Part shown: piece by piece, positions 6,368 through 19,680 of the stretch
How positions within the stretch are numbered: position 1 is the first letter of the stretch
How the letters are laid out: every line of letters begins with the position of its first letter
Made by a program: the position numbers and the translations under genes
Notes under the pieces: generated by a model
What the model was told of the DNA's origin: nothing
What the model saw: only the letters and a program-made list of their open reading frames with translations
Database searches by the model: none
NCBI GenBank assembly: GCA_964568835.1
Contig: CAZMRZ010000003.1
Location: 35,651-99,650 of the forward strand
Reading direction: 5' to 3'
DNA: 64,000 nt
Source of the DNA: an uncultured Woeseiaceae bacterium
GTDB taxonomy: Bacteria; Pseudomonadota; Gammaproteobacteria; Steroidobacterales; Woeseiaceae

Positions 6368-7492
6368 GTGTCGGGGCTGGTTCTCACTGACTATCGCCGA
6401 CTGGTCATTAAGGTCGGTTCGTCGCTGCTGGTTGATGATACCGGCAAACTAAATCGATCCTGGCTGGATAAGCTCGCCGATGACGTCGCGAGCCTCAAGG
6501 CCACCGGCCATGAAGTACTGATTGTGTCATCGGGCGCGATAGCGATCGGTAGCTCGGTACTCGGAATTAATAAACGACGGGCTCGACTGGAAGAACTGCA
6601 AGCGGCGGCTGCCGCAGGGCAGGTACAACTGGTACATGCTTACCAGGAGGCGTTGCGGCGACATGATATCGCGGCGGCACAGGTGTTATTGACGCCAGAC
6701 GATACCGAAGACAGGCGACGTTTCCTGAACGCTCGTCGTACACTGGGAAAATTGATCGAATGCTCGGTGGTGCCTGTTATCAACGAGAATGATACCGTTG
6801 CTACCGAAGAAATTCGTTACGGTGACAATGATCGACTCGCCGCGAGGATCGCGCAATTGGTCATGGCCGATGCGCTGATTCTCCTGTCCGACGTCGACGG
6901 TTTTTATACGGCCGATCCGGGCGCGTTTGAAGACGCCGAACACATTCCCGAAGTCAGTAGCATTAGCAACGACATGTTGGCGATGGCGGGCGAGACGCGT
7001 TCGGATGTCGGGACTGGCGGCATGGCAACCAAGGTACAAGCCGCGAGTATCGCGACGCACGCGGGTTGCTCGACGATCATTGCGAGCGGTGTTATCTCAA
7101 ACCCGCTACAGGCCTTGAGCGCCGGGGCACGATGCACCGTCTTTCACGCATCAGCGACGCCCGCAGCGGCGCGTAAGCAATGGCTTGCCGGTGTTCTCGA
7201 GGTTAGAGGCGAACTTCAAATTGACGACGGTGCCGTGCAAGCACTGCGAGACGGCGGTAGCTTGTTACCCGTTGGTGTCGCTGCCGTACGCGGCGATTTT
7301 CGACGTGGCGATGTGGTTTCACTGAAAAGCGCGGCAGGCGATAATGTCGGACGTGGCATGGCGGAATACTCCGCAGACGAGGCGCGGCGACTGGTGGGAA
7401 TTCGATCCGACAAGATCGCTGCGGTGCTCGGCTACGGTGGACGTGCCACCATGGTGCATCGCGACGAACTGGTTTTGTTTGAAAATGACTGA
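6368..7492 (+). CDS. proB: Glutamate 5-kinase (with C-terminal PUA domain)
   Basis: GTG start 3 nt after the ilvN stop. Motifs VIKVGSSLL, IVSSGAIA, NENDTV, GDNDRLAA and GTGGMATK, with a PUA-like C-terminus. Confidence 0.93.
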   Translation: MSGLVLTDYRRLVIKVGSSLLVDDTGKLNRSWLDKLADDVASLKATGHEVLIVSSGAIAIGSSVLGINKRRARLEELQAAAAAGQVQLVHAYQEALRRHDIAAAQVLLTPDDTEDRRRFLNARRTLGKLIECSVVPVINENDTVATEEIRYGDNDRLAARIAQLVMADALILLSDVDGFYTADPGAFEDAEHIPEVSSISNDMLAMAGETRSDVGTGGMATKVQAASIATHAGCSTIIASGVISNPLQALSAGARCTVFHASATPAAARKQWLAGVLEVRGELQIDDGAVQALRDGGSLLPVGVAAVRGDFRRGDVVSLKSAAGDNVGRGMAEYSADEARRLVGIRSDKIAAVLGYGGRATMVHRDELVLFEND

Positions 7493-8759
7493 AGACCTTA
7501 CTGATATTGCGGGCGACATGGTCGCTATGGGTAAAGCCGCTCGAGCAGCGTCCGCCGAGCTTGCGAGTTGTTCGGGTGAGCAGCGTGATTTGGCATTGCG
7601 CTGCGCAGCCGTAGCGCTGCGTTCGAACGCCGACTCAATTCTTGCAGCGAACCAAAACGATCTGACGGAGGCCCGCAAGCGGGGATGCAGCGCGTCGGTG
7701 CTCGATCGCCTGATGCTTGACGAAGAACGGATCGAGGCCATTGCCGGTAGCCTGGAGGCAATTAGTGAAATACCGGATCCGGTCGGCCGTGTCATGGCCG
7801 AATGGGAGCGACCCAACGGACTAAAGATCCAGCGAGTTGCCGTCCCACTTGGCGTTATCGGCATCATCTATGAGAGTCGTCCAAACGTGACGGCTGACGC
7901 CGCCGCTTTATGCGTGAAATCAGGAAATGCGGCGATATTGCGAGGCGGTTCCGAGAGCTTTCACTCGAGTCAGGCCATCTACAAGTGCATGCGCGAGGGG
8001 CTCGAAGAAGCCGATATCAATGTCGACAGTATCCAGATGGTGCCAACGCGAGATCGCGCCGCCGTCGGCTATTTGTTGTCATCGATGTCACAGTGGGTCG
8101 ACGTTGTTGTTCCCCGCGGTGGAAAGAGCCTGATCAAACGCGTGCAGGATGAAGCCAGAGTTCCCGTCATTGGGCACCTTGAAGGGATTTGTCACGTCTA
8201 CCTGCATTCCTCAGCCGATGCCGCGATCGCGCGCGATGTCGTGTTGAACGCGAAGATGCGTCGCACCGGCATTTGCGGTGCCGCCGAAACGGTTTTGGTT
8301 GATGCCGATGTCGCGCCGCGACTTTTGCCGGACGTTTGTCAGGCGCTTTTCGAGGCCGGTTGCGAAATTCGTGGCGATGAGAATGTTGTTTCCTTGATAA
8401 GCGGAGCGATAGAAGCCAGCGAAGAGGACTGGTCGACGGAATATTTGGATTCGATCGTCTCAATACGAATTGTCGACAACATTGACTCGGCGATGGAACA
8501 CATCGCGACCTACGGTTCGGGTCATACCGAAAGCATAATCGCGGCAGATTCCGACGCTGCGGAGAAATTTCTAAGGACGGTGGACAGTGCGATCGTCCTG
8601 CATAATGCGTCGACGCAATTTGCAGATGGTGGTGAGTTTGGCATGGGTGCAGAAATAGGTATTGCTACAGGTCGCGTGCACGCGCGCGGCCCGGTAGGTG
8701 CTGAACAGTTGACGATTTACAAATACGTCGTTCGTGGGACCGGCCAGGTACGACCCTGA
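7485..8759 (+). CDS. proA: Gamma-glutamyl phosphate reductase
   Basis: The ATG at 7485 overlaps the proB stop (ATGACTGA). IYESRPNVT, the catalytic-Cys region RTGICGAAETVLV, and HGSGHTESI are present. Confidence 0.93.
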   Translation: MTEDLTDIAGDMVAMGKAARAASAELASCSGEQRDLALRCAAVALRSNADSILAANQNDLTEARKRGCSASVLDRLMLDEERIEAIAGSLEAISEIPDPVGRVMAEWERPNGLKIQRVAVPLGVIGIIYESRPNVTADAAALCVKSGNAAILRGGSESFHSSQAIYKCMREGLEEADINVDSIQMVPTRDRAAVGYLLSSMSQWVDVVVPRGGKSLIKRVQDEARVPVIGHLEGICHVYLHSSADAAIARDVVLNAKMRRTGICGAAETVLVDADVAPRLLPDVCQALFEAGCEIRGDENVVSLISGAIEASEEDWSTEYLDSIVSIRIVDNIDSAMEHIATYGSGHTESIIAADSDAAEKFLRTVDSAIVLHNASTQFADGGEFGMGAEIGIATGRVHARGPVGAEQLTIYKYVVRGTGQVRP

Positions 8760-10383: not shown

Positions 10384-12621
10384 ATGTTCATGAACAGACT
10401 CACTTACATTTCGGTTGCAGTGCTTTGCATCTGCGCGACCCTCGCGGGGCCGTCGGCCAGCGCTGATGATGCCACTACGGGCGATTCTCCGGAGCGGCTG
10501 CGCGTCGGATTGGTACTCGGTGGCGGCGGTGCGAGGGGCGCGGCTCATATCGGCGTACTCAAGGAGCTGGAGCGCCTGCGCATTCCCATCGACGCTATCG
10601 CCGGGACCAGTATGGGCGCCGTCGTGGGCGGCTTGTACGCGACCGGTATCAACGCAGAAGAGCTTGAGTCGCTTGTGAGTTCTCTCGATTGGAATGCGGC
10701 GCTCTCGGATACGCCGGAACGCGAAGACCTGAGTTTTCGCCGCAAGCAGGACGAACGCGAATTCCCCATTAATTTCGAATTGGGTGTTCGCGACGCCGAG
10801 TTGATTCTACCCAAAGGCGTTATACAGGGTCAAAAACTGGATCTGCTGCTGCGTGAATTGACTCTGCGGGCATCGCATATCACCGACTTCGACGATTTGC
10901 CGATCCCGTTTCGAGCGATTGCGTCAGATATCGTTGCCGGCGAAGCGGTCGTTCTGGCCAGCGGTGATTTGACCGAGTCGATTCGCGCGAGTATGTCGGT
11001 CCCCGCAGTGTTTGCGCCTGCACGCGTCGATGGTCGACTGCTGGTTGACGGCGGACTGATCGGCAACCTGCCCATTGACGTCATGAAAGCGATGGGTGTC
11101 GATGTTGTCATTGCTGTCGACGTTGAGTTTCCGCTCTACAAATCGGAAGAGCTCGGTTCCGTCCTGACGATATCGGAACAGATGCTGACCATTCTGATTC
11201 GTAAGGAGACTTTGCGGCAAATCGATACATTGAACGAATCCGATATTCTCATCAGACCTGAACTCGGTATTTACGCTTCAACGAATTTTGCTGACATCGT
11301 CGAAACGATCGAACCGGGTCAACAAGCCGCATTGGCGCAGTCCGGAAAATTACAAAAACTGTCCTTACCCGAGACGGATTGGGCTCAACATGTGGCGCAA
11401 CGGACAATGGATTTCAATGATCAGGAGCTGCTGGCTTTTGTTCGGGTCGTTCATGATGGCAAGCTTGCTCCCGAAGTTCTGGAATCTCGGCTGAGCGTTG
11501 AGGCCGGGGACCCGATCAATACACGTCTACTGGCAGAGAACGCGAATCGGCTTTATGGCCTTCAGCTGTATGAGCACGTCGGCTACCGGCTGATCGACGA
11601 GGGCGATGGTACGGGCGTCGAGTATCGGGCTGTCGCGAAGAGCTGGGGACCGAATTTCTTGCAGTTCGGGGTTTCACTCGAGGATGACTTCGAGGGCTCT
11701 ACCGGCTTCAATCTGTCTGTTCGCATGACGCGCGCCGGTCTAAACAGGCTCGGGGCGGAGTGGCGGACCGACTTGCAACTGGGTACGGATCCCGCGTTGC
11801 TAACTGAGTTCTACCAGCCGCTGAGCTTCGACTCCAGAGTATTCATCGCGCCGCGTCTGGAAGTCCGGCAATCCAATCTAAACGCCTTCTCGATGAACGA
11901 CACGATCGCGCGTTATCGGGTGTCCGAAGGGGACCTGAGTCTCGACTTCGGACGGGAACTCGGTACGGTTGGCGAGTTTCGAGTTGGTGTGTATCGCGGC
12001 TTGGGCGATGCTCGCGTGAAGGTGGGTGATCCGAGTTTGCCGAACATCGACTTCGAGACAGGCGGTGCTTTCGCCAGATTCCGATTCGACTCCATGGACA
12101 ATTCGCGTTTTCCGCGAGAGGGCATGCTGGCTGAGATCCTCTGGAATCTGTCACGCCCAGGATTAGGTGCCGACGACAATTTCGATACGATTGAGGGTGA
12201 CTTCTCCAAAACCTGGAGTCGGGGCAAGAACAGTCTGCAATTGGGATTGAATTACGCCACCACACTCGATTCCCATAATAGCGTGCAAGACTACTTTCCC
12301 TTGGGCGGCTTCTTGAGACTGTCGGGGCTGGAGCGCGGTGAAATCGCCGGGCCGCATGCCGCTTTGACGAGGCTCGTCTATTATCGGCGAGTCGGAGATA
12401 CCACGGGTGGCGTTTTCGAAACGCCGATCTATCTTGGCTTTTCGGTCGAGGCCGGAAACGTCTGGCAGACCCGATCTGAAATAGACTTCGATTCAATGCA
12501 AGTAAACGGCAGTTTGTTTGCCGGACTGGATACCTATTTCGGACCCGTTTATCTCGCCGCGGGATTCGCTGAGCGCGGTCATACGAATTTCTACCTGTTT
12601 ATTGGCGCGCCGCCGCGGTAG
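10384..12621 (+). CDS. Patatin-like phospholipase fused to a POTRA/Omp85-type beta-barrel (PlpD-like, type Vd secretion architecture)
   Basis: Signal peptide present. Patatin motifs GGGGARG, GTSMG (nucleophile elbow) and VDGGL (catalytic Asp). The long C-terminal region ends in an aromatic-rich beta-barrel-like sequence (...NFYLFIGAPPR). Confidence 0.8.
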   Translation: MFMNRLTYISVAVLCICATLAGPSASADDATTGDSPERLRVGLVLGGGGARGAAHIGVLKELERLRIPIDAIAGTSMGAVVGGLYATGINAEELESLVSSLDWNAALSDTPEREDLSFRRKQDEREFPINFELGVRDAELILPKGVIQGQKLDLLLRELTLRASHITDFDDLPIPFRAIASDIVAGEAVVLASGDLTESIRASMSVPAVFAPARVDGRLLVDGGLIGNLPIDVMKAMGVDVVIAVDVEFPLYKSEELGSVLTISEQMLTILIRKETLRQIDTLNESDILIRPELGIYASTNFADIVETIEPGQQAALAQSGKLQKLSLPETDWAQHVAQRTMDFNDQELLAFVRVVHDGKLAPEVLESRLSVEAGDPINTRLLAENANRLYGLQLYEHVGYRLIDEGDGTGVEYRAVAKSWGPNFLQFGVSLEDDFEGSTGFNLSVRMTRAGLNRLGAEWRTDLQLGTDPALLTEFYQPLSFDSRVFIAPRLEVRQSNLNAFSMNDTIARYRVSEGDLSLDFGRELGTVGEFRVGVYRGLGDARVKVGDPSLPNIDFETGGAFARFRFDSMDNSRFPREGMLAEILWNLSRPGLGADDNFDTIEGDFSKTWSRGKNSLQLGLNYATTLDSHNSVQDYFPLGGFLRLSGLERGEIAGPHAALTRLVYYRRVGDTTGGVFETPIYLGFSVEAGNVWQTRSEIDFDSMQVNGSLFAGLDTYFGPVYLAAGFAERGHTNFYLFIGAPPR

Positions 12622-12626
12622 AAGAC

Positions 12627-12929
12627 TTAGCGAGTGATTTTTTCCAGAATCTGAGTGGGTGAATCGGTATCGCGATAGTAGCCATGCCGAGTCGCCATTT
12701 TGTCGAACGCTGCATCACGTTCCGCTTCGCTTGGATACCAATGGTGTCGTTCCCAGTCGTCACCAAGTACATTCCTTAATGTGTCCCCGATCGGCAATGA
12801 AACTCGAATACCGTAGCCTCGCTTCTGGTTGGCGATCGATTGATCGACCAAATTGTGTTGGTGGCAATATTCCACTGCTATTCCTCGTAGTCCTGGCGTG
12901 CGTGCGGTGCGAGTATACCGAATCTTCAA
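12627..12929 (-). CDS. Small hypothetical protein (100 aa)
   Basis: Clean ORF, divergent from the giant NTPase gene. The sequence (..GYGIRVSLPIGD..WERHHWYPSEAERDAAFDKM..) looks like a real folded protein, but I cannot name the family. Confidence 0.55.
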   Translation of the reverse strand: MKIRYTRTARTPGLRGIAVEYCHQHNLVDQSIANQKRGYGIRVSLPIGDTLRNVLGDDWERHHWYPSEAERDAAFDKMATRHGYYRDTDSPTQILEKITR

Positions 12930-13040
12930 CGGTCTGAGACATCTTCGCGAGTAAGGGTTTACTTATGATCTTTCGATTTTACACTGGCAGTCGTCCTCGA
13001 TTTTGCAGAGAATACACAATCCTTATAGACGGGAAGTGGT

Positions 13041-16000
13041 GTGGCCGGCGATTCCACCGATAAAGATACGGAAGCAACGGGCGAGTTCTTCAGCGTCGGC
13101 GTGCCATTGCACGCGGTTCGTGCCGGTTATATCCGGCGTCGTGCGGACGAACAGCTATACAACGCTGTTGTTGCCGGTCGATATGCCCACGTCTTAGCAC
13201 CCGATCGAAGCGGAAAGTCGAGCTTAATCGCCGCCACAACGGCTCGCCTGGAAAGCAAGGGTTTCAAAGTCGCCATTCTCGATCTCGCGCAGATCGGTGA
13301 TCGGGACGGCGGCACTGATTCCGGACGGTGGTATTACAGCGTCGCCTATCGTCTCTTGCGGCAGCTGCGTATTCGCTACGACCTGCAATCCTGGTGGCAG
13401 GACAAGACTGTTCTTAGCAACCGCCAAAGGCTTTTCGAATTTTATTCAGAAGTTTTGCTGCAGCACGTCTCCGAGCCTATCGTCATATTCGTTGACGAGA
13501 TTCAATGTATTGAGGACCTGCCGTACGCGGACGAATTGCTGACGAGTATTCGCGCTGCCCATAACGCCCGAACAACGGATCCCGATTTTTCGAGGTTGAG
13601 TTTCGTACTGCTGGGCGAGTGCGATCCGGTCAGCTTGATGCAAGAGGCTGAACTCTCTCCGTTCAATGTTACGCAGCAAGTCCTGCTTGACGACTTTTCG
13701 CGCTCCGATCTGGATCTGTTTGCCACCGAGTTGAACCTCGAACACGATGACGCCGTTGTCGCGCTGGACCGCATTTACTACTGGACGAAAGGGCAGCCGT
13801 ACTTGAGCCAGAAGTTGGCACGTGCGGTCGCTCGGGATGCGGCCGGCGAGAATATCGAAGAGCGAGTCGATCGAATCGCGACCCGGGAGATCGCGGGCCG
13901 AGCTGCGCTTCACAGCGAACCACATATGAGCCATATCCATCGCTTAATAGTGAACGACAAGAAGCGCTGCGAACCGCTGCTGAATCTCTACGGAAAAATT
14001 CGCAAAGGCATTGAGGTTCCGGCCGACCTCGGTTCGCCGCTTCAGAGGCGACTGATGGCGCTTGGCTTGCTGGTCATCGATGAGGACAGCAACGTCGGCA
14101 TTCGTAATCGTTTATACGAACTGGTTTTTACCGCTCGCTGGGCAAACGAAAACCTGCCGACGTATTTCAAGGTTCCCGCGATGGTTGCCGCCGTCCTTTT
14201 GCTATTTATGATGATTCCGTTTTGGTACACGCAATGGCTGCCGGGTCCGTACGCCCGAACACTGGCTGCCGACGATACAGAACTGTCAGTAGCGACGAGT
14301 GCCTACGAAAATTTTCGATCGTTCCCGGGTCACGCGGACACAGCGGAAAATCTCTATCGCAGATTCCTGGAGCGCCGGGCGCTAGCCTCAAATGAAGAAA
14401 TGGAAATTCGTCAATTGGCAACGCTGGTGGCGGATCTACCGAACGCCGGTCGATTGGCGGAGGAGTTCGAAGCGGGTTTTTGGGAACGAAAAGCCAGTTT
14501 GGCCTTACGCCAGGAGAATCGAGACGATGCTTTGCTGGCAAAAATACAGTCGTTCGTTTTGCCAACAACAGTGCGCCGGCAACGAGCGGCGGCGCTTGTC
14601 AGCGATGATTATCCCTATCTGCTGGCCACGTTACCGGCGATTCCGGCCGGCACAACGGTTTTCGATCCTGTCGGTATGATCCTGACGACCGCAAGGGGCG
14701 CGGAGATTTTCCAGTTCTCGTTCACACCTCAGGGCGTCCAACGTCGAGAACCATGGACAGTTACGGCGCTTGAAGTGAATCCGCTGGTTCGCAGGGTCAT
14801 TGTCGATCGCGAAGGATCTGTCGGTCGTATCGGCCTGACGCTGAATATCAGTCATTCCCGACTTTCCGATTTGCGTATCAAGATAATCGCTCCCTCCGGT
14901 CGCGCTGTTGAGATCGAGACCGGGATTGAAAGAGCATCAAGCAACGACGATATCCGGATATCGGCTCAACAACTGCGGAACCTGATCGGCGAGTCGCTGA
15001 GCGGAACCTGGAGTATCAGCGTTCGTGACGAGGCCCTCGGCGTCGCAGGACAGCTGGTTGGCTGGAATCTCAAACTCAATTCTCAGGGTGCGATCGAGTA
15101 TTTTCAGCGAGGCCTTAACATTCCGGACCCGGCTGAACGTGAAACGGACAACATCTGGTTCGACTCTTCGGGCCGATACGCTGTAGCACGCGCAACGCAA
15201 AGTGATAGCGTCCGAGTTTGGGATCTGAGTTTCGCCGATCCCGTCCGCGCGATTGCACTTCCGGAGAGTGAAGTTCTAATCGGTCTGAATGCCACGGCAC
15301 GGCGGTTGGTCACTGCAACACAGGACAGAATAAACCTCTGGGATACAGCGACAGGCGACCGCGTCATGACTCTCCCCGTTGGTGTCGGTAGTAATACAGC
15401 GGCTCTGACTCCGGATCGAACGCACTTGTTTGTCGAGCGTCGAGGCGACATCGAGAGTCGTCTGCAATTGTGGAATCTGGAAGATGGGAATATCGCCGCT
15501 GAGGTTGTTGTTGCCGGTGTACCCGCGCTCGTTGCGATTGACGCTGCCGGTTCCAGGGTCGCAATAGCGGATTTCGACCGGGCTGTCCGAATCTGGGATT
15601 TTCAGAGCGCTGAGTTGCTGGGTCAGTTTGACCTGCCAGCACAACCGGGCACGATTCGCCTGTCGGCTGATGGGTCTACTTTGGGCGTCATATACCCCGA
15701 CACAGGCCTGTCCCTGTGGAACGTGAGCAGACCGGAGGAGCCGATGCATCAGCAACTTGGCGCCGGAGACTGGCAGATCGCTTTCTCGCCGTCGGGAAAT
15801 CGGGTTGCAGCCGGCCGTCCCGACACTGGATTCAGAGTTCTTAGCAGTGTTGACGGCATGCTGGTTGGTCCTTCGCTGGGTGTTCGAAGTGACGGTCCGC
15901 CGGAGGGTTTGCTGGCCTTTAGCCAGGATGAACAGGTGCTATTGACCGGTGCCGCTGATGACAAACCGAGAATCTGGCGTGTTCCGACTCTGAGTGCCGC

Positions 16001-17039
16001 GAACAGCCCCACGGCGCAACCCGCTGGCCATAAGATTTGGAGCGCGTCCGCCAATCGCACCGTCGTTGCGGCGCCGGACGGTCGATTTATTGCGATCGGC
16101 GATCCCGCCGGACATGTTCATATTGTTCCGAGTGATGCGACGCTGGCTGACGTCACTGAAATGAGTGAAGACGTCAGTTTTGTCGGTCATAACAGTGAAG
16201 TTACGCTCATCAGTATCGACGCGTCCGGCTCCCTCGCGGCCAGCGTGGCCACGGATAATTCGTTGCGGCTATGGACGACAAGCAACGGAGAACCACGACC
16301 ATACGTCGTCGAGATATCCGGTCCACCCGTATCGCATCTCGAATTTTCGCTCGATGGTGGTTTTATCGGCGTACTCAACGGAAGTCGAGTCCACGTGATA
16401 AAGGTCGACGACGGCCGCATTGTCGCGGAACACGATGCGGGGTCTCCGATCAGCGGCATCACATTCGCTGCGGAGAATAGCCTCTATCTGGGCGGCGACA
16501 ACGGCAGCCTGCAATTGCTGGCGCGTGGCGACGACGAAAACTGGAGTGCGCAGCAAGTTTGGCAGGGTCAGGATGGCATCCGTCTATTGCGCGCCTCGCC
16601 CAAAGGAGACTTTCTGGTTTTGGTTGACCAGACTAATACGGCCAGTCAATTCAAGCTCTCCGACGGCCAGATTGGCGACGCGATCTTGCAACTGCCATCC
16701 GACGTTTACGAGCTCGCCTTCGATACGACGGGTACACGGGCCTATTTTAGAACTGCGCGTTGGGTCCATCGAGCCAGTTCTTCCGTCTCAGGCCTGAACT
16801 GGATGGACGCGATTTTTGTTTCCCCGGCACTTGACGGTGCAGGCATTGTTCACGGCAACGGAACAGCGGATACGAATGCGAGGCGCAAAATGTATTTGCC
16901 GACCGCCAAGAATGGCTATCTCGAGCTTGAAGAGCTGAAATTTGGTGGCTCATCGTCGACAGGGCTTTTCGGCAACAAAGACAAGCTGTTGCAGGAGTGG
17001 CGCGAACGACTCAGCGCAGTTCCCCTCGAAGGGTCCTGA
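13041..17039 (+). CDS. Giant multidomain protein: N-terminal AAA_35-like (STAND-type) NTPase, single TM helix, proprotein-convertase P-domain, C-terminal WD40-like repeats
   Basis: GTG start after GGGAAG. N-terminus FFSVGVPLHAVRAGYIRRRADEQLYNAV...APDRSGKSSL (Walker A), IVIFVDEIQ (Walker B) and YWTKGQPYLSQKL, as I recall for the AAA_35 family. Hydrophobic helix VPAMVAAVLLLFMMIPFWYTQWL (about nt 14170..14235). P-domain-like GLTLNISHSRLSDLRIKIIAPSGRAVEI...SGTWSISVRDEALGVAGQLVGWNLKL (about nt 14800..15085). Repeated VRVWD, INLWD, LQLWN, VRIWD, LSLWN, PRIWR and LRLWT blades. Confidence 0.8.
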   Translation: MAGDSTDKDTEATGEFFSVGVPLHAVRAGYIRRRADEQLYNAVVAGRYAHVLAPDRSGKSSLIAATTARLESKGFKVAILDLAQIGDRDGGTDSGRWYYSVAYRLLRQLRIRYDLQSWWQDKTVLSNRQRLFEFYSEVLLQHVSEPIVIFVDEIQCIEDLPYADELLTSIRAAHNARTTDPDFSRLSFVLLGECDPVSLMQEAELSPFNVTQQVLLDDFSRSDLDLFATELNLEHDDAVVALDRIYYWTKGQPYLSQKLARAVARDAAGENIEERVDRIATREIAGRAALHSEPHMSHIHRLIVNDKKRCEPLLNLYGKIRKGIEVPADLGSPLQRRLMALGLLVIDEDSNVGIRNRLYELVFTARWANENLPTYFKVPAMVAAVLLLFMMIPFWYTQWLPGPYARTLAADDTELSVATSAYENFRSFPGHADTAENLYRRFLERRALASNEEMEIRQLATLVADLPNAGRLAEEFEAGFWERKASLALRQENRDDALLAKIQSFVLPTTVRRQRAAALVSDDYPYLLATLPAIPAGTTVFDPVGMILTTARGAEIFQFSFTPQGVQRREPWTVTALEVNPLVRRVIVDREGSVGRIGLTLNISHSRLSDLRIKIIAPSGRAVEIETGIERASSNDDIRISAQQLRNLIGESLSGTWSISVRDEALGVAGQLVGWNLKLNSQGAIEYFQRGLNIPDPAERETDNIWFDSSGRYAVARATQSDSVRVWDLSFADPVRAIALPESEVLIGLNATARRLVTATQDRINLWDTATGDRVMTLPVGVGSNTAALTPDRTHLFVERRGDIESRLQLWNLEDGNIAAEVVVAGVPALVAIDAAGSRVAIADFDRAVRIWDFQSAELLGQFDLPAQPGTIRLSADGSTLGVIYPDTGLSLWNVSRPEEPMHQQLGAGDWQIAFSPSGNRVAAGRPDTGFRVLSSVDGMLVGPSLGVRSDGPPEGLLAFSQDEQVLLTGAADDKPRIWRVPTLSAANSPTAQPAGHKIWSASANRTVVAAPDGRFIAIGDPAGHVHIVPSDATLADVTEMSEDVSFVGHNSEVTLISIDASGSLAASVATDNSLRLWTTSNGEPRPYVVEISGPPVSHLEFSLDGGFIGVLNGSRVHVIKVDDGRIVAEHDAGSPISGITFAAENSLYLGGDNGSLQLLARGDDENWSAQQVWQGQDGIRLLRASPKGDFLVLVDQTNTASQFKLSDGQIGDAILQLPSDVYELAFDTTGTRAYFRTARWVHRASSSVSGLNWMDAIFVSPALDGAGIVHGNGTADTNARRKMYLPTAKNGYLELEELKFGGSSSTGLFGNKDKLLQEWRERLSAVPLEGS

Positions 17040-18894
17040 CGAGTAATTCCAGCCGCTCCGCGGTGGCGTCGGCGGGTGGGACCGCCTCGCCAATGACAAT
17101 CGGCACCTTGGCGAAAAGACGCCCGGGGATTTTACGAATTCCGCCGCCTTTGCGCCGGCTGAACCAGCTGCCCCACAAACGCCCCAAGGCAACAGGAATG
17201 ACGGGTACTGGTCGTCGCGCGATGATCTTTTCGATCCCGGGCCTGAAGCGCTGTACTTCGCCGTCGGGCGTCAAACCACCTTCCGGGAAAATACAGACGA
17301 TATTGCCCGCCGCTAGTTCGGCATCGACTTTTTCGAAGGCTTCGTTCATTAGATCCTCGTCCTCAGCTTTGGAGGCGATCGGGATCGCCTTCGCATTGCG
17401 AAACAGAAAGCTGAGAAACGGCATCTGAAAAATCTTGTAATACATGACAAAACGCATCGGTCGTGCGACCGAGCCGCCAAGAATGATCGGGTCCATGAAA
17501 CTGACGTGATTGCAGACAACGATGGCCGGACCGCTCTTCGGAATGTTGTCGAGGCCGCTGGGTCGAAGTCTGTACACGACGTTGATAACGATCCATGCCA
17601 AGAAACGCATCAGGAATTCTGGCAGCAATGAATATATGTAGATCGCAACAATAGCGTTGAAAACGGCGATGAAGAGAAACAGCTCGGGTATCGAGAAACC
17701 GGACTTGAGAATAATGATACTGACGACTGCCGCGCTGACCATGAGCAGCGAGTTGATGATGTTATTTGCGGCAATGATGCGCGACAAGTGACGGCGCTCG
17801 GAGCGTTTCTGTATCAGAGCATATAGCGGAACGCTGTAAAACCCGCCGAATGCACCCAGTAATGTCAGGTCGGCGAGAATTCGCCAACTGCCGCTGCGGT
17901 TCAGAAATTCGGCGACGGACGAAACAGTGGTAAGCGCCGCTTCAGGTTGTGCGAAATAGAGGTCGACAGCAAACAGGCTCATGCCGATCGAGCCAAACGG
18001 TACGAGTCCAAGCTCGATTCGATGATCGGACATGCGTTCGCAAAGCAACGAACCCAGTCCGACCCCAACGGCAAACGCGACCAGTAAGGCTGTAACAACG
18101 GATTCATTACCGTTGAGAATATCGGCTGCGTAAGCAGGCATCTGAATGGTCATCGCCGAGCCGAAGAACCAGAACCAGGAAATTCCGAGAATCGACAGAA
18201 AAACACTTTTCTCTTCCCGAGCGAAACTGACGATACGCCACGTTTCTTTCCAGGCATTCCAATTGATCGTCAACTCCGGGTCGACCGCTTCCGTTTTAGG
18301 GATCTGTCGACTTGTTAGATAGCCGATGCAGGCGACACCGATAAGCGTCAGCGCCAGAACGGTTTGACGATCTGCCTCATAGTCAACGGCCTCCACGCCG
18401 ATAATCAGGCCGACAATGATCGCAATATAGGTTCCCGACTCGACGAGCGCATTGCCGCCGATCAATTCTTCGGTGCGCAGTTTCTGCGGCAGGTAGGCGT
18501 ATTTTACAGGGCCAAACATGGTTGACTGGCAGCCCATGAGAAACAGTACGAACAGCAGCAATGAGTACTTCTGCGAAAGCAGGGCGATGGCTGCCAGCGT
18601 CATTAACGCTATTTCGAGAAGCTTGATGCGTCGCATCAGCATCGATTTCTCGTACTTGTCCGCCAGTTGACCGGCCGTCGCGGAGAACAGGAAAAAGGGC
18701 AGAATGAACAGGAACGCCGCGACGTTTGCCAGCACCGTATGGTCCATGCTCATTATCTGGACACCCTGAAATGTGATCAGGATCACAAGCCCATTGCGGA
18801 AGATATTGTCGTTTAGGGCGCCAAGGAACTGTGTGCCGAAGAAAGGTGCGAAGCGGCGCTGCTTGAGTAGCGAAAACTGGCTGGATTCTGACAA
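17011..18894 (-). CDS. Lysophospholipid transporter (LplT-type MFS) fused to a PlsC-family acyltransferase
   Basis: 12-TM MFS body, then acyltransferase motifs CNHVSFMDP (HX4D) and IFPEGG. I place the start at in-frame TTG 18894 (MSESSQFSLLKQRRFAPFFGTQFLGA, preceded by AAGGA). The ORF track extends to 19137, which would overlap the divergent lipoprotein gene. Confidence 0.8.
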   Translation of the reverse strand: MSESSQFSLLKQRRFAPFFGTQFLGALNDNIFRNGLVILITFQGVQIMSMDHTVLANVAAFLFILPFFLFSATAGQLADKYEKSMLMRRIKLLEIALMTLAAIALLSQKYSLLLFVLFLMGCQSTMFGPVKYAYLPQKLRTEELIGGNALVESGTYIAIIVGLIIGVEAVDYEADRQTVLALTLIGVACIGYLTSRQIPKTEAVDPELTINWNAWKETWRIVSFAREEKSVFLSILGISWFWFFGSAMTIQMPAYAADILNGNESVVTALLVAFAVGVGLGSLLCERMSDHRIELGLVPFGSIGMSLFAVDLYFAQPEAALTTVSSVAEFLNRSGSWRILADLTLLGAFGGFYSVPLYALIQKRSERRHLSRIIAANNIINSLLMVSAAVVSIIILKSGFSIPELFLFIAVFNAIVAIYIYSLLPEFLMRFLAWIVINVVYRLRPSGLDNIPKSGPAIVVCNHVSFMDPIILGGSVARPMRFVMYYKIFQMPFLSFLFRNAKAIPIASKAEDEDLMNEAFEKVDAELAAGNIVCIFPEGGLTPDGEVQRFRPGIEKIIARRPVPVIPVALGRLWGSWFSRRKGGGIRKIPGRLFAKVPIVIGEAVPPADATAERLELLVRTLRGELR

Positions 18895-19056
18895 GCTTTC
18901 GTCCTTGTGGGTCAGCTGAGGGTCACTATAGCGCGAAATCTCGAGATTACCGTTCAAAACTGCGAACTCGCGTCGATATGGGAATTGAACATCTTTGCTA
19001 TTATGGCCAACGTACGAGCATGATTTTTCTACCATTTGGCCAATTGATACTGAATT

Positions 19057-19680
19057 TTGACGATGCGAAACACTTATACACAATTGATTTTGACGCTTTT
19101 CTCCATTGGGCTTCTTGCCGGATGCGAGGGAGAGCACCGGTCTCGATCAACAACCGAGTTCCTTGAGAACCCGATTATGCTCGAGGCGGCCATGGTCCGG
19201 TGTTCTCAGGATCGATCGGCAACTCGCTACGATGCTGAATGCGTAAACGCGCGCCAGGCGGTCTCAACTATCGAAGCGGAAAAGGAAGCAGAACGCCATG
19301 CTGAGCTTGAGGCTCGATCAGAAAGTAAGCGTCGGGCGTTGCGACGAGCTCAGGCGGCGGCAACACAGGCGCGACGACGGGCGGCCGAATCAGAAAGCTT
19401 GCGAAAAGAAGCGGAGTATCTTGCCCAATTCGGCGTGGCGTTGCCCGCAGACGACCAAACAAGGGTTGGGGAAGCCGATACGGGCAATACGCCTGTGGCT
19501 GTGATCCCAGAGAGTTCGGAGTCAGCGGTTATTTCGACTGGGTCAGGTGATGCCGTGCAAGCGACGGACGGCGGAAATGCGCCGGGCAGTGTTGCGATAC
19601 CGGAGGAAGACGATACGAAATCCGATCTGGACTCGATTCGCGACGAGCTGCAACGACGCAACAATGACGGCGGCGACTAG
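19057..19680 (+). CDS. Lipoprotein of unknown function (charged coiled-coil middle, acidic tail)
   Basis: Lipobox LLAGC after MTMRNTYTQLILTLFSIG. Cys pair CSQD...AEC, then an E/R/A-rich helix. Its stop shares the tetranucleotide CTAG with the convergent MscS stop. Confidence 0.65.
   Translation: MTMRNTYTQLILTLFSIGLLAGCEGEHRSRSTTEFLENPIMLEAAMVRCSQDRSATRYDAECVNARQAVSTIEAEKEAERHAELEARSESKRRALRRAQAAATQARRRAAESESLRKEAEYLAQFGVALPADDQTRVGEADTGNTPVAVIPESSESAVISTGSGDAVQATDGGNAPGSVAIPEEDDTKSDLDSIRDELQRRNNDGGD

What the first reader, a model, noticed from the sequence alone, without database searches (positions are those of the whole stretch)
13041..17039. Solitary 1332-aa transmembrane AAA_35-type NTPase fused to a P-domain and a WD40 array
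The N-terminal ~330 residues look like the AAA_35 / STAND-like ATPase family. They contain FFSVG...YIRRRADEQLY...APDRSGKSSL, Walker B IVIFVDEIQ and YWTKGQPYLSQKL. A single strongly hydrophobic helix follows, then ~200 helical residues. Next comes a proprotein-convertase-type P-domain with no protease domain attached, and then at least seven WD40-like blades. If the helix spans the membrane, a cytoplasmic NTPase switch is wired to ~940 periplasmic residues of beta-sandwich plus propeller. STAND NTPases with repeat sensors are recurrent in signalling and conflict/defence systems, but I do not know a characterised member with this topology. The gene stands alone: divergent from a 100-aa unknown protein, and overlapping the convergent lplT-type gene at its 3' end.
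Basis: partly seen in the sequence, partly recalled or inferred. Interest (0 to 1): 0.7.

Follow-up and report, generated by a model that had tools for sequence, protein, structure and literature searches.

The report
Membrane-spanning STAND-like NTPase with periplasmic propellers
This is a real, conserved core gene of Woeseiaceae sediment bacteria that looks like an Apaf-1-type ATP switch cut in two by a membrane helix, with the ATPase inside the cell and a P-domain plus two WD40 propellers outside; no member of the family has been studied.

Summary
ORF 13041-17039 (+) encodes 1332 aa: AAA_35 NTPase (aa 29-364, E=5e-28), one hydrophobic helix (376-399), a helical domain with no database match (402-529), a P_proprotein domain (596-679, E=8e-14) and two WD40 propellers (about 713-1298), not just seven blades.

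An N-in/C-out topology is supported but not proven. In 119 orthologues there are on average 3.3 Cys before the helix and 0.04 in the about 940 residues after it. Relatives carry typically secreted domains at the same position.

The gene is not on an island. It sits at one syntenic position in Woeseiaceae and related gammaproteobacterial MAGs down to about 30% identity. dN/dS is 0.14, like its neighbours. It is not fully solitary: an 82-aa gene is divergent upstream in nearly every locus with enough upstream sequence. Most relatives also carry a small RIO-like kinase gene there, which survives in this window only as a remnant.

Among the 150 best representatives of the wider AAA_35 family, most have a hydrophobic segment just after the NTPase. 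Other branches pair with TIR-AAA_35 genes in conflict-like settings.

Best reading: a single-pass receptor-type STAND-like ATP switch that reads a periplasmic or envelope ligand. The function is inferred, not shown.

The parts
13041..17039 (+). Complete gene, 1332 codons plus stop, GTG start
   Evidence: There are 953 homologues at E<=1e-5, and the top 120 are full length at 61-91% identity. dN/dS is 0.14.
13125..14132 (+). AAA_35 NTPase module (aa 29-364): P-loop core, helical lid and winged-helix-like end
   Evidence: Pfam PF14516, E=5.1e-28. AF2 places strands at 49-52, 76-81, 147-154, 186-192 and 212-215, helices at 222-321, and a small hairpin at 344-354. Foldseek matches Arch_ATPase, Orc1/Cdc6 and STAND proteins.
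13197..13223 (+). Walker A (aa 53-61, APDRSGKSS; K59)
   Evidence: G58, K59 and S61 are invariant in 43 orthologues. GKSS is kept in distant relatives.
13479..13499 (+). Walker B (aa 147-153, IVIFVDE)
   Evidence: D152 is invariant and E153 is present in at least 90% of orthologues. The D is invariant in distant relatives.
13791..13799 (+). GxP motif in the helical lid (aa 251-253, GQP, within WTKGQPYLSQKL)
   Evidence: G251 is invariant and P253 is present in at least 90%. G245 and P247 are invariant in alignment A3 of relatives at 24-37% identity. That a GxP motif is a STAND hallmark is from my own knowledge (Leipe et al. 2004).
14136..14165 (+). Cytoplasmic juxtamembrane motif (aa 366-375, RWANENLPTY)
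   Evidence: R366, W367, A368, N369 and L372 are invariant. This is the most conserved segment of the protein at 86% mean pairwise identity.
14166..14237 (+). Predicted membrane helix (aa 376-399), ending in the conserved PFWYTQW motif
   Evidence: KD 2.15. The hydrophobic core varies while P393, Y396, T397, Q398 and W399 are invariant. AF2 models a helix at 374-399. Among the best family representatives, 110 of 135 have a hydrophobic 19-mer within 60 aa after AAA_35.
14244..14627 (+). Extracytoplasmic helical domain (aa 402-529) with no match in Pfam or the PDB
   Evidence: AF2 pLDDT is about 90 with 7-8 helices. Pfam and PDB sequence or profile searches found nothing. The domain is shared with family members that lack the P-domain.
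14826..15077 (+). P_proprotein (proprotein-convertase P) domain, aa 596-679, preceded by a small beta segment (aa 538-595)
   Evidence: Pfam PF01483, E=8.4e-14, full-length match. At 82% mean pairwise identity it is as conserved as the NTPase core. No peptidase domain is present in the protein.
15177..15980 (+). WD40 propeller 1 (aa about 713-980)
   Evidence: Pfam propeller models. AF2 pLDDT is about 90. Foldseek matches tandem-propeller proteins.
16059..16934 (+). WD40 propeller 2 (aa about 1007-1298), followed by a short C-terminal helix (aa 1313-1324)
   Evidence: It is the least conserved domain (53% identity, dN/dS 0.21) but is still under purifying selection.
12627..12875 (-). Conserved 82-aa gene, divergent from the target; candidate partner
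   Evidence: It lies directly upstream in 22 of 26 Woeseiaceae loci. It is also there next to the orthologues P0141, P0294, P0296 and P0364, which are far more diverged. Alignment A4 shows 38-77% identity. dN/dS is 0.13. No Pfam, NCBIfam, PHROG or PDB match was found. The family has 2241 members, all unnamed or 'hypothetical'.
12919..13071 (-). Remnant of the 5' end of a RIO/Kdo-like Ser/Thr kinase gene that is intact in most related loci
   Evidence: tblastn of the L002 kinase aligns its aa 6-56 to window 13071..12919 (35% identity, E=1.6e-6). The same query matches most of the related loci held at E<=1e-5: 23 loci, of which L033 has only a short remnant-like match and L034 and L022 are cut by contig ends. 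The kinase matches RIO1 and APH in Pfam, and aligns to NCBIfam PRK09188 and PRK12274 with strong E-values but below their curated cut-offs.

Best explanation
The gene encodes a single-pass inner-membrane receptor built on a STAND/Orc-type ATP switch.

Shown by sequence and models: an N-terminal AAA_35 NTPase with intact Walker A and B and a GxP lid motif, ending in a small winged-helix-like element. About 10 very conserved residues then link it to one hydrophobic helix. After that come a helical domain with no database match, a P-domain and two WD40 propellers.

Inferred topology: the NTPase is cytoplasmic and the roughly 940 C-terminal residues are periplasmic.

Inferred mechanism: the P-domain and the tandem propellers bind an as yet unknown periplasmic or envelope ligand. 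Ligand-driven clustering or reorientation passes through the conserved juxtamembrane motifs (RWANENLP inside, PxWYTQWLP outside). This licenses ADP/ATP exchange and oligomerisation of the NTPase under the membrane, as in Apaf-1 or NLR activation. The sensor cannot autoinhibit the NTPase by direct contact because it lies across the membrane.

The output is not encoded in the protein itself, which has no effector domain. It probably goes through recruited partners. The divergently transcribed 82-aa protein is the best candidate. In most relatives a small RIO-like kinase is a second one.

In this lineage the gene behaves as a vertically inherited housekeeping or surveillance gene, not a mobile defence gene.
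For: Domains.

NTPase competence: G58, K59, S61 and D152 are invariant, and E153 and P253 are present in at least 90% of orthologues. The same residues are kept at 24-37% identity.

Fold: the best Foldseek matches are Arch_ATPase 2qen/2fna (E about 7e-7), Orc1/Cdc6, Avs5, SAMD9, NOD2, Roq1 and Avs4. The C-terminal model (pLDDT 82, pTM 0.75) matches tandem propellers including Apaf-1 3sfz and 5juy.

Topology:
- There is a single KD peak of 2.15.
- In 119 orthologues the mean is 3.3 Cys before the helix and 0.04 after it; 114 of 119 have none after it.
- The same holds in 39 representatives at 31-63% identity, which have 0, occasionally 1, or 2 Cys after the helix.
- K+R is 1.84 on the inner flank against 1.12 on the outer flank.
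- Relatives carry PD40, PKD/Big_9, PPC and FGE-sulfatase domains after the equivalent helix.
- 110 of 135 representatives have a hydrophobic segment within 60 aa after AAA_35.

Signal-transmitting helix: the juxtamembrane flanks are more conserved (86%) than the hydrophobic core (66%).

Core-genome status: synteny is identical in 26 Woeseiaceae loci and around orthologues of 30-39% identity. dN/dS is 0.08-0.21 per domain against 0.115-0.134 for neighbours. GC content is flat across the region.

Module behaviour: AAA_35 occurs fused to sigma-70 factors in cyanobacteria, alongside NB-ARC, WD40 and TPR_MalT (PMC11119718). This fits use as a signalling module.
Against: - No topology predictor and no experiment supports the membrane insertion. 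The positive-inside bias is weak.
- The N-terminal AF2 model is only moderate (mean pLDDT 70, pTM 0.45). The P-domain is poorly modelled in both jobs (pLDDT 50-70).
- No ligand, no output domain and no demonstrated partner are known. The 82-aa protein has no recognisable fold or family.
- The kinase has been lost in this window's lineage, so it cannot be essential for the function.
- Conserved synteny within one gammaproteobacterial lineage is weak evidence of functional linkage.
- Signalling through a single helix by a STAND-type NTPase has no characterised precedent that I know of.
Confidence: 0.5

Rival explanations
1. It is an anti-phage or conflict sensor, a transmembrane NLR-like immune receptor. 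The periplasmic propellers detect an invader component or envelope damage. ATP-driven oligomerisation then kills or arrests the cell, for instance by bundling the membrane helices into a lesion or by recruiting a toxic partner.
For: Other branches of the same AAA_35-TM family sit in conflict-type settings. A TIR-AAA_35 gene lies directly upstream of an AAA_35-TM-WD40 gene in L032, flanked by transposases and Mrr_cat, and in L036. A soluble AAA_35 gene lies upstream of an AAA_35-TM-PKD-PD40 gene, next to a DUF4062/NB-ARC-like gene, in L035. There are fusions with Trypsin+TIR, CHAT and FGE-sulfatase. Foldseek similarity to Avs4, Avs5 and NLRs was found.
Against: This orthologue has no effector domain and no paired AAA_35 gene; it is the only AAA_35 in the 64 kb. 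No mobile elements are nearby. It keeps a fixed syntenic position down to about 30% identity. Every domain, sensors included, is under purifying selection (dN/dS 0.08-0.21). PADLOC gave no significant hit.
Confidence: 0.2
2. It is an inside-out envelope machine or scaffold. The cytoplasmic NTPase uses ATP to position or remodel the periplasmic P-domain and propellers, which act on envelope components such as lipoproteins, outer-membrane lipids or peptidoglycan. This would loosely resemble TolB or PD40-type propellers.
For: Conserved neighbours are envelope-related: patatin+Omp85, MFS+acyltransferase (LplT/Aas-like), an EexN-like lipoprotein, MscS, M48 peptidase and LemA. Sister architectures carry TolB-type PD40 propellers. 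The P-domain is as conserved as the NTPase core, which suggests a fixed endogenous partner.
Against: Orc/Cdc6- and STAND-type NTPases are known as switches, not motors (general knowledge). A single helix is a poor force transmitter. The MFS-acyltransferase and patatin genes are replaced by other genes next to distant orthologues, so the linkage is not conserved.
Confidence: 0.15
3. It is a membrane-tethered transcription regulator of the ToxR/CadC type. The winged-helix element at the end of the AAA_35 module would bind DNA when the periplasmic domains sense a signal.
For: A helix-hairpin-helix element (aa 333-362) lies just before the membrane helix. Orc1/Cdc6 structures bound to DNA are among the best Foldseek matches. 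A conserved sequence block lies in the divergent intergenic region.
Against: The winged helix is only about 10 residues from the membrane and is part of the NTPase regulatory unit, as in STAND proteins. The conserved intergenic block is explained by the kinase-gene remnant. No inverted repeat or operator-like element was found.
Confidence: 0.07
4. The whole protein is cytoplasmic, like Apaf-1. The hydrophobic segment is then a buried or peripherally membrane-associated helix.
For: WD40 (PF00400-type) repeats are mostly cytoplasmic. There is no signal peptide. The two prolines in the segment and the weak positive-inside bias leave room for doubt.
Against: Cys is almost completely absent from the roughly 940 residues after the helix in 119 orthologues, against 3.3 before it. 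The same is seen in distant relatives. Secreted-type domains (P_proprotein, PPC, PKD, PD40) follow the equivalent helix across the family. The substitution pattern is that of a lipid-facing helix.
Confidence: 0.05

Closest known systems
Apaf-1 / CED-4-type STAND NTPases (NB-ARC followed by tandem WD40 propellers)
   Same: The order of modules is the same: a P-loop NTPase with Walker A and B, a GxP lid and a winged helix, followed by two WD40 propellers. Foldseek matches STAND NTPases with the N-terminal model and Apaf-1 itself (3sfz, 5juy, 3j2t) with the C-terminal model.
   Different: The NTPase belongs to Pfam AAA_35, not NB-ARC. Its best structural matches are archaeal Arch_ATPases and Orc1/Cdc6. 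There is no CARD or other effector domain. A membrane helix, a helical domain and a P-domain separate the NTPase from the propellers, so the sensor would lie on the other side of the membrane and cannot clamp the NTPase.
Archaeal Arch_ATPase proteins PABY2304 (PDB 2qen) and SSO1545 (PDB 2fna), and Orc1/Cdc6
   Same: These are the best structural matches to aa about 29-365 (E 7e-7 to 3e-5, target-normalised TM-score 0.42-0.51).
   Different: They are soluble proteins of about 350-390 aa with no membrane helix and no sensor repeats. Identity is only 12-16%. No sequence-level hit to any PDB chain was found.
Single-pass receptor Ser/Thr kinases such as Mycobacterium PknD (kinase, TM helix, extracellular beta-propeller) and PknB (kinase, TM helix, PASTA repeats); recalled from my own knowledge
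   Same: The topology logic is the same: a cytoplasmic enzyme domain of about 300-370 aa, one membrane helix, and extracytoplasmic repeat or propeller sensor domains. Signalling is expected to work through ligand-dependent clustering.
   Different: The cytoplasmic module here is an ATP switch, not a kinase. There is no sequence relationship.
Two-gene TIR-AAA_35 + AAA_35-TM-WD40/PD40 units and tandem AAA_35-AAA_35-TM fusions
   Same: They share the AAA_35 NTPase (29-38% identity), a hydrophobic helix right after it, and in many cases the same post-helix helical linker.
   Different: They carry or are paired with effectors (TIR, trypsin, CHAT) and sit near transposases or restriction genes. They lack the P-domain. 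The window gene is unpaired, has no effector and is in the core genome.
DGR-diversified STAND (NACHT) targets with predicted membrane segments in Thiohalocapsa PB-PSB1 (PMC10907252)
   Same: That paper predicts STAND NTPase proteins with transmembrane regions whose sensor domains may face the periplasm. The idea of STAND-type surveillance of the periplasm has therefore been raised before.
   Different: Those proteins have a NACHT NTPase and C-type-lectin sensors that are hypermutated by a retroelement. Here the NTPase is AAA_35, the sensors are WD40 propellers and a P-domain, and selection is purifying with no DGR.

Membership tests
Pfam AAA_35 (PF14516, 'AAA-like domain') | Match to the family HMM above the curated gathering score, over most of the model | tested here: met
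   98.3 bits against a cut-off of 27, E=5.1e-28, covering model positions 12-330 of 331.
STAND-class P-loop NTPases (Leipe, Koonin & Aravind 2004; recalled) | Walker A GK[ST] and Walker B hhhhD[DE] | tested here: met
   APDRSGKSS and IVIFVDE. K59 and D152 are invariant and E153 is present in at least 90%.
STAND-class P-loop NTPases | Helical domain with a GxP motif after the NTPase core, followed by a winged-helix domain | tested here: met
   The GQP motif at 251-253 is conserved in orthologues and in distant relatives. AF2 places helices at 222-321 and then a helix-hairpin-helix at 333-362. This region of the model has pLDDT of only 60-88.
STAND-class P-loop NTPases | C-terminal superstructure-forming repeats that act as the sensor | tested here: met
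   Two WD40 propellers are present. They are separated from the NTPase by a predicted membrane helix, which is atypical.
STAND-class P-loop NTPases | Phylogenetic or structural placement inside STAND rather than in the Orc/Cdc6 AAA+ clade | tested here: inconclusive
   Foldseek ranks Arch_ATPase and Orc1/Cdc6 slightly ahead of or level with STAND proteins, all at E 1e-7 to 1e-4 and low TM-scores. No phylogeny was built.
Known or candidate anti-phage defence systems (PADLOC-DB v2.0.0) | Significant match of the protein to a defence-system HMM, in a defence-island-like context | tested here: not met
   The only hit is a weak WD40-region match (HEAT-ARM_XIII, E=0.002). The neighbourhood is housekeeping and syntenic.
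Subtilisin/kexin-type proprotein convertases | An S8 catalytic domain followed by the P-domain | tested here: not met
   The P_proprotein domain is present at aa 596-679, but no peptidase domain is present anywhere in the protein.
KAP-family P-loop NTPases (membrane-associated; recalled) | Transmembrane helices inserted within the P-loop domain | tested here: not met
   The single hydrophobic helix follows the complete NTPase module. Pfam reported no KAP_NTPase match at E<=1.

The most novel reading that the evidence does not exclude
AAA_35-TM proteins would be a large, unrecognised class of bacterial transmembrane NLR-like receptors that survey the periplasm. Extracytoplasmic propeller, PD40, PKD or lectin-type sensors would drive ATP-dependent oligomerisation of a STAND-like NTPase under the membrane. 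In mobile branches this would fire TIR, trypsin or CHAT effectors as a new two-gene immune system. In Woeseiaceae and allied Gammaproteobacteria one branch, carrying a P-domain and two WD40 propellers, would have been domesticated as a core-genome envelope surveillance receptor that signals through the 82-aa partner and a small kinase.
Probability: 0.25. Interest if true: 0.8.

Novelty: new variant of a known kind. Interest (0 to 1): 0.55.

Why it matters
STAND and NLR-type ATP switches are central to innate immunity and cell-death signalling in animals, plants and bacteria. As far as I know, every characterised one senses its ligand in the same compartment as the NTPase.

A version whose sensor lies across the membrane would need a different activation logic: clustering through a single helix instead of release of autoinhibition. 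It would also extend STAND-type surveillance to the periplasm.

The family is large. There were 8076 representative clusters at E<=1e-3, and among the best 150 most have a hydrophobic segment right after the NTPase. It is unnamed beyond 'AAA-like domain-containing protein' and absent from PADLOC v2. In other branches it is paired with TIR effectors.

This particular orthologue is a conserved core gene of Woeseiaceae, which are known (my own knowledge) as one of the most abundant bacterial groups in marine sediments. Its function therefore probably matters for the envelope physiology of an ecologically important, poorly studied lineage.

Tried and rejected
- **Literature.** 'AAA_35' returned only noise, because the underscore is ignored. 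'PF14516' returned 0 papers. 'AAA-like domain-containing protein' returned one irrelevant genome report.
- **eLife 2020 conflict-systems paper (PMC7159879).** My term searches did not find this architecture.
- **Sequence searches of the PDB.** The NTPase, the linker plus P region, the 82-aa profile and a profile of the helical linker gave nothing significant.
- **Family libraries.** NCBIfam gave only sub-threshold propeller matches. PHROGs gave nothing. PADLOC gave nothing meaningful. Pfam found nothing for the helical linker.
- **82-aa partner.** The homology search returned 2241 proteins, all unnamed or 'hypothetical' and without Pfam domains.
- **Cluster look-up.** It gave no names or accession numbers, so I could not tell whether any cultured strain carries the gene.
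- **Intergenic region.** There were no sigma-70-like promoter or terminator matches, no Rfam hit and no inverted repeats. I considered a sigma-54 promoter in the conserved block TGGCAG...TTGCA and rejected it by eye because the spacing is wrong. The block turned out to be a remnant of the kinase gene's 5' end.
- **Island origin.** Rejected on flat GC content, absence of tRNA genes in the window and conserved synteny.
- **Hessa-scale insertion energy.** I did a rough hand calculation and did not use it, because without position weighting the two prolines dominate the result.

Full report
**1. The observation**

The window holds an uninterrupted ORF at 13041-17039 on the + strand: 1332 codons with a GTG start. 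A GGGAAG purine-rich motif lies 5-9 nt upstream. The N-terminus (VAGDS...) coincides with the start of its homologues (consensus MAGDS...).

Pfam gives four kinds of match:
- AAA_35 at aa 29-364, E=5.1e-28, 98.3 bits against a gathering score of 27.
- P_proprotein at aa 596-679, E=8.4e-14, full-length match.
- WD40 (PF00400) at 32.9 bits against 27.
- A long series of beta-propeller models between aa 703 and 1146.

G58, K59 and S61 (Walker A) are invariant. D152 (Walker B) is invariant and E153 is nearly so. The WTKGQPYLSQKL block is nearly invariant too.

One segment stands out in hydrophobicity: Kyte-Doolittle 2.15 over aa 376-394. The next peak, at aa 818-836, contains charged residues and lies in a propeller strand.

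The gene is real and functional. Against its closest relative (L033, dS 0.31) dN/dS is 0.14 overall and 0.08-0.21 per domain. The flanking genes give 0.115-0.134.

**2. Anatomy**

An AlphaFold2 model of aa 1-700 has mean pLDDT 70. It shows:
- a disordered N-terminus (aa 1-29);
- a five-stranded P-loop core;
- a helical lid;
- a small helix-hairpin-helix at aa 333-362;
- a long helix at aa 374-399;
- a helical bundle at aa 402-529, modelled with pLDDT of about 90;
- beta structure that includes the P-domain, at pLDDT 50-70.

Foldseek against the PDB ranks the archaeal Arch_ATPases 2qen and 2fna first (E about 7e-7). Orc1/Cdc6 follows, then STAND proteins: Avs5, SAMD9, NOD2, Roq1, Avs4, Sr35 and NLRP3. 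No PDB chain is detectable by sequence alone.

The model of aa 590-1332 is better (pLDDT 82, pTM 0.75). It shows 47 strands arranged as two propellers, at about aa 713-980 and 1007-1298, plus a short terminal helix. Its best matches are tandem-propeller proteins: 2ymu, Pwp2, Aip1 and Apaf-1.

The helical domain after the membrane helix has no Pfam or PDB relative, even when searched with a profile.

Within the orthologue group, mean pairwise identity by region is as follows:

| Region | Mean pairwise identity |
|---|---|
| Cytoplasmic juxtamembrane motif | 86% |
| P-domain | 82% |
| NTPase core | 81% |
| Hydrophobic helix | 66% |
| Propeller 1 | 63% |
| Helical domain | 61% |
| Propeller 2 | 53% |

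**3. Topology**

No topology predictor was available, so I used indirect tests.

- **Cysteine distribution.** The window protein has 3 Cys, all before the helix. In 119 full-length orthologues the mean is 3.3 Cys before the helix and 0.04 in the roughly 940 residues after it; 114 of 119 have none. In 39 representatives at 31-63% identity the post-helix count is 0, occasionally 1, or 2. This is the pattern expected for a region exposed to the oxidising periplasm.
- **Substitution pattern.** The hydrophobic core changes by conservative substitutions, while RWANENLP before it and PFWYTQWLP after it are nearly invariant. W-Y and L-P persist at 24-37% identity.
- **Domain types in relatives.** After the equivalent helix, relatives carry domains typical of secreted proteins: PD40, PKD/Big_9, PPC and FGE-sulfatase.
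- **Positive-inside rule.** K+R is higher on the N-terminal flank (1.84 against 1.12). This is a weak bias.

Together these make N-in/C-out likely. It is still an inference.

**4. Where it occurs**

The genome scan found 26 loci, in MAGs labelled Woeseiaceae or more broadly Gammaproteobacteria, Proteobacteria or 'uncultured bacterium', at 48-75% identity. They share one syntenic frame:

ilvB-ilvN-proB-proA-glpD-patatin/Omp85 | 82-aa gene (-) | [small kinase (-)] | target (+) | MFS-acyltransferase (-) | lipoprotein | MscS | Ysc84 | M48 | LemA | ApbE

A profile built from distant full-architecture relatives recovered only gammaproteobacterial MAG proteins. They are named 'AAA-like domain-containing protein' or 'WD40 repeat protein/subtilisin-like proprotein convertase family protein'.

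Orthologues of only 30-39% identity keep the same frame: ilvBN-proBA upstream and Ysc84-M48-LemA-ApbE downstream. This includes one from a contig in a different JGI metagenome (3300015245; its source was not checked). The patatin and MFS-acyltransferase genes are replaced in several of these loci. The small 79-87-aa gene remains directly upstream and divergent.

GC content is flat. The window has no tRNA genes and no second AAA_35 gene. This is a vertically inherited core gene, not an island gene.

**5. Not quite solitary**

The '100-aa' ORF is a conserved 82-aa gene at 12627-12875 (-). Its dN/dS is 0.13. It has 2241 homologues, all unnamed or 'hypothetical', and matches no family or structure.

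In most related loci a 250-aa RIO/Kdo-like kinase gene lies between this gene and the target. Its 5' end overlaps the target's 5' end.

In the window only the first 50 or so codons of the kinase survive, as a remnant at 12919-13071 (-) (E=1.6e-6). The remnant explains the conserved intergenic block seen. The kinase is therefore dispensable in this lineage, while the 82-aa gene is retained.

**6. The wider family**

A search of 1.84 billion representative proteins with aa 1-590 found 8076 hits at E<=1e-3 and 3638 at E<=1e-30. I sorted the best 150 with HMMs built from this protein's own domains:

| Architecture | Representatives |
|---|---|
| Same as the window protein (31-63% identity, 1300-1410 aa) | 41 |
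| AAA_35, helix, linker and propellers, without a P-domain | 46 |
| Tandem AAA_35-AAA_35 | 29 |
| Other C-terminal regions | 22 |
| Short or fragmentary (<500 aa) | 12 |

Of the 135 representatives with at least 80 residues after AAA_35, 110 have a hydrophobic 19-mer within 60 residues. Among these best representatives, the membrane helix is therefore the norm rather than a peculiarity of this gene.

Other branches look like conflict systems:
- A TIR-AAA_35 gene abuts an AAA_35-TM-WD40 gene in L032, flanked by IS elements and Mrr_cat, and in L036.
- A soluble AAA_35 gene precedes an AAA_35-TM-PKD-PD40 gene in L035.
- Fusions include Trypsin-TIR-AAA_35-AAA_35, as well as TPR-CHAT and TPR-FGE-sulfatase after the helix.

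PADLOC v2 recognises only the TIR and WD40 parts of these proteins. In cyanobacteria AAA_35 is also found fused to sigma-70 factors, alongside NB-ARC and WD40 (PMC11119718). This suggests it is used as a signalling module.

**7. Interpretation**

The best-supported reading is a single-pass receptor built on a STAND/Orc-type ATP switch. The periplasmic P-domain and tandem propellers would bind a ligand. The conserved juxtamembrane elements would transmit clustering or reorientation. The NTPase would exchange nucleotide and oligomerise beneath the membrane. The output would go through partners, since no effector domain is present.

What is shown: the domains, the motifs, the conservation and the genomic behaviour. 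What is inferred: the topology (strongly), the switch mechanism (by analogy) and the partners (weakly).

The rivals are, in order of likelihood:
- a conflict sensor, favoured by the family context but disfavoured by core synteny, purifying selection and the lack of an effector;
- an inside-out envelope machine;
- a ToxR-like membrane-tethered regulator;
- a fully cytoplasmic protein, disfavoured by the Cys pattern.

**8. Comparison with what is known, and novelty**

The protein is a clear member of Pfam AAA_35. It meets the sequence hallmarks of STAND NTPases: Walker A and B, a GxP lid, a winged helix and C-terminal repeats. Its placement relative to Orc/Cdc6 remains unresolved.

It works most like Apaf-1, and Foldseek recovers Apaf-1's class for both halves. 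For topology it works most like single-pass receptor kinases such as PknD; that comparison is from my own knowledge and was not tested.

It is not a proprotein convertase, because it has no peptidase domain. It is not a KAP NTPase. It is not in any catalogued defence system.

I found no paper that characterises any AAA_35 protein. The nearest published idea is the prediction of membrane-associated, possibly periplasm-facing STAND sensors among DGR targets (PMC10907252).

I rate it a new variant of a known kind. The sequence family is already in databases, but its transmembrane STAND-like design and its function are undescribed.

Noticed in passing
L032:6475-11381; L036:4390-9432; L035:101-4680: A recurrent two-gene unit occurs in other branches of the family. 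A soluble AAA_35 gene, carrying an N-terminal TIR domain in L032 and L036, sits directly upstream of (abutting or overlapping) an AAA_35-TM-WD40 or AAA_35-TM-PKD-PD40 gene. L032 is flanked by IS110/DDE transposases and Mrr_cat. Tandem AAA_35-AAA_35-TM proteins (29 of the 150 best representatives), one with Trypsin+TIR, look like fusions of this pair. PADLOC v2 has no model for the AAA_35 parts. This may be an uncatalogued defence system.
   Followed up: partly
window 12919-13071 (-): This is a remnant (about 50 codons, 35% identity, E=1.6e-6) of the 5' end of a RIO/Kdo-like Ser/Thr kinase gene. The gene is present in most related loci, where its start overlaps the start of the target gene. Most of it has been deleted in this lineage and in L033.
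   Followed up: yes
window 19057-19680 (+): A 207-aa ORF with a lipobox-like LLAGC matches NCBIfam EexN-family lipoprotein (E=7.7e-9, just above its cut-off). It is conserved downstream of the target in distant loci (L028, L030, L031). It overlaps the annotated maximal start of the MFS-acyltransferase ORF (17011-19137, -). That gene therefore probably starts further downstream; the equivalent gene in L033 is 648 aa.
   Followed up: partly
window 10384-12621 (+): A 745-aa patatin-like phospholipase is fused to an Omp85-type barrel; the Omp85 match is below Pfam's cut-off. By recollection this resembles a PlpD-like type Vd autotransporter architecture. It is conserved next to the locus in most Woeseiaceae but is replaced by a TonB-dependent receptor in L029.
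   Followed up: no
window 7344-8759 (+) and 6368-7492 (+): The proA-like ORF, as listed from its first possible start, overlaps the end of proB by about 150 nt. In related loci the called proA is about 424-428 aa, so the true start is probably near 7490.
   Followed up: no
window 17011-17039: The 3' ends of the target and the convergent MFS-acyltransferase gene overlap by 29 nt. A similar overlap of about 17-23 nt is seen in many but not all related Woeseiaceae loci (for example L002 11995-12017).
   Followed up: partly
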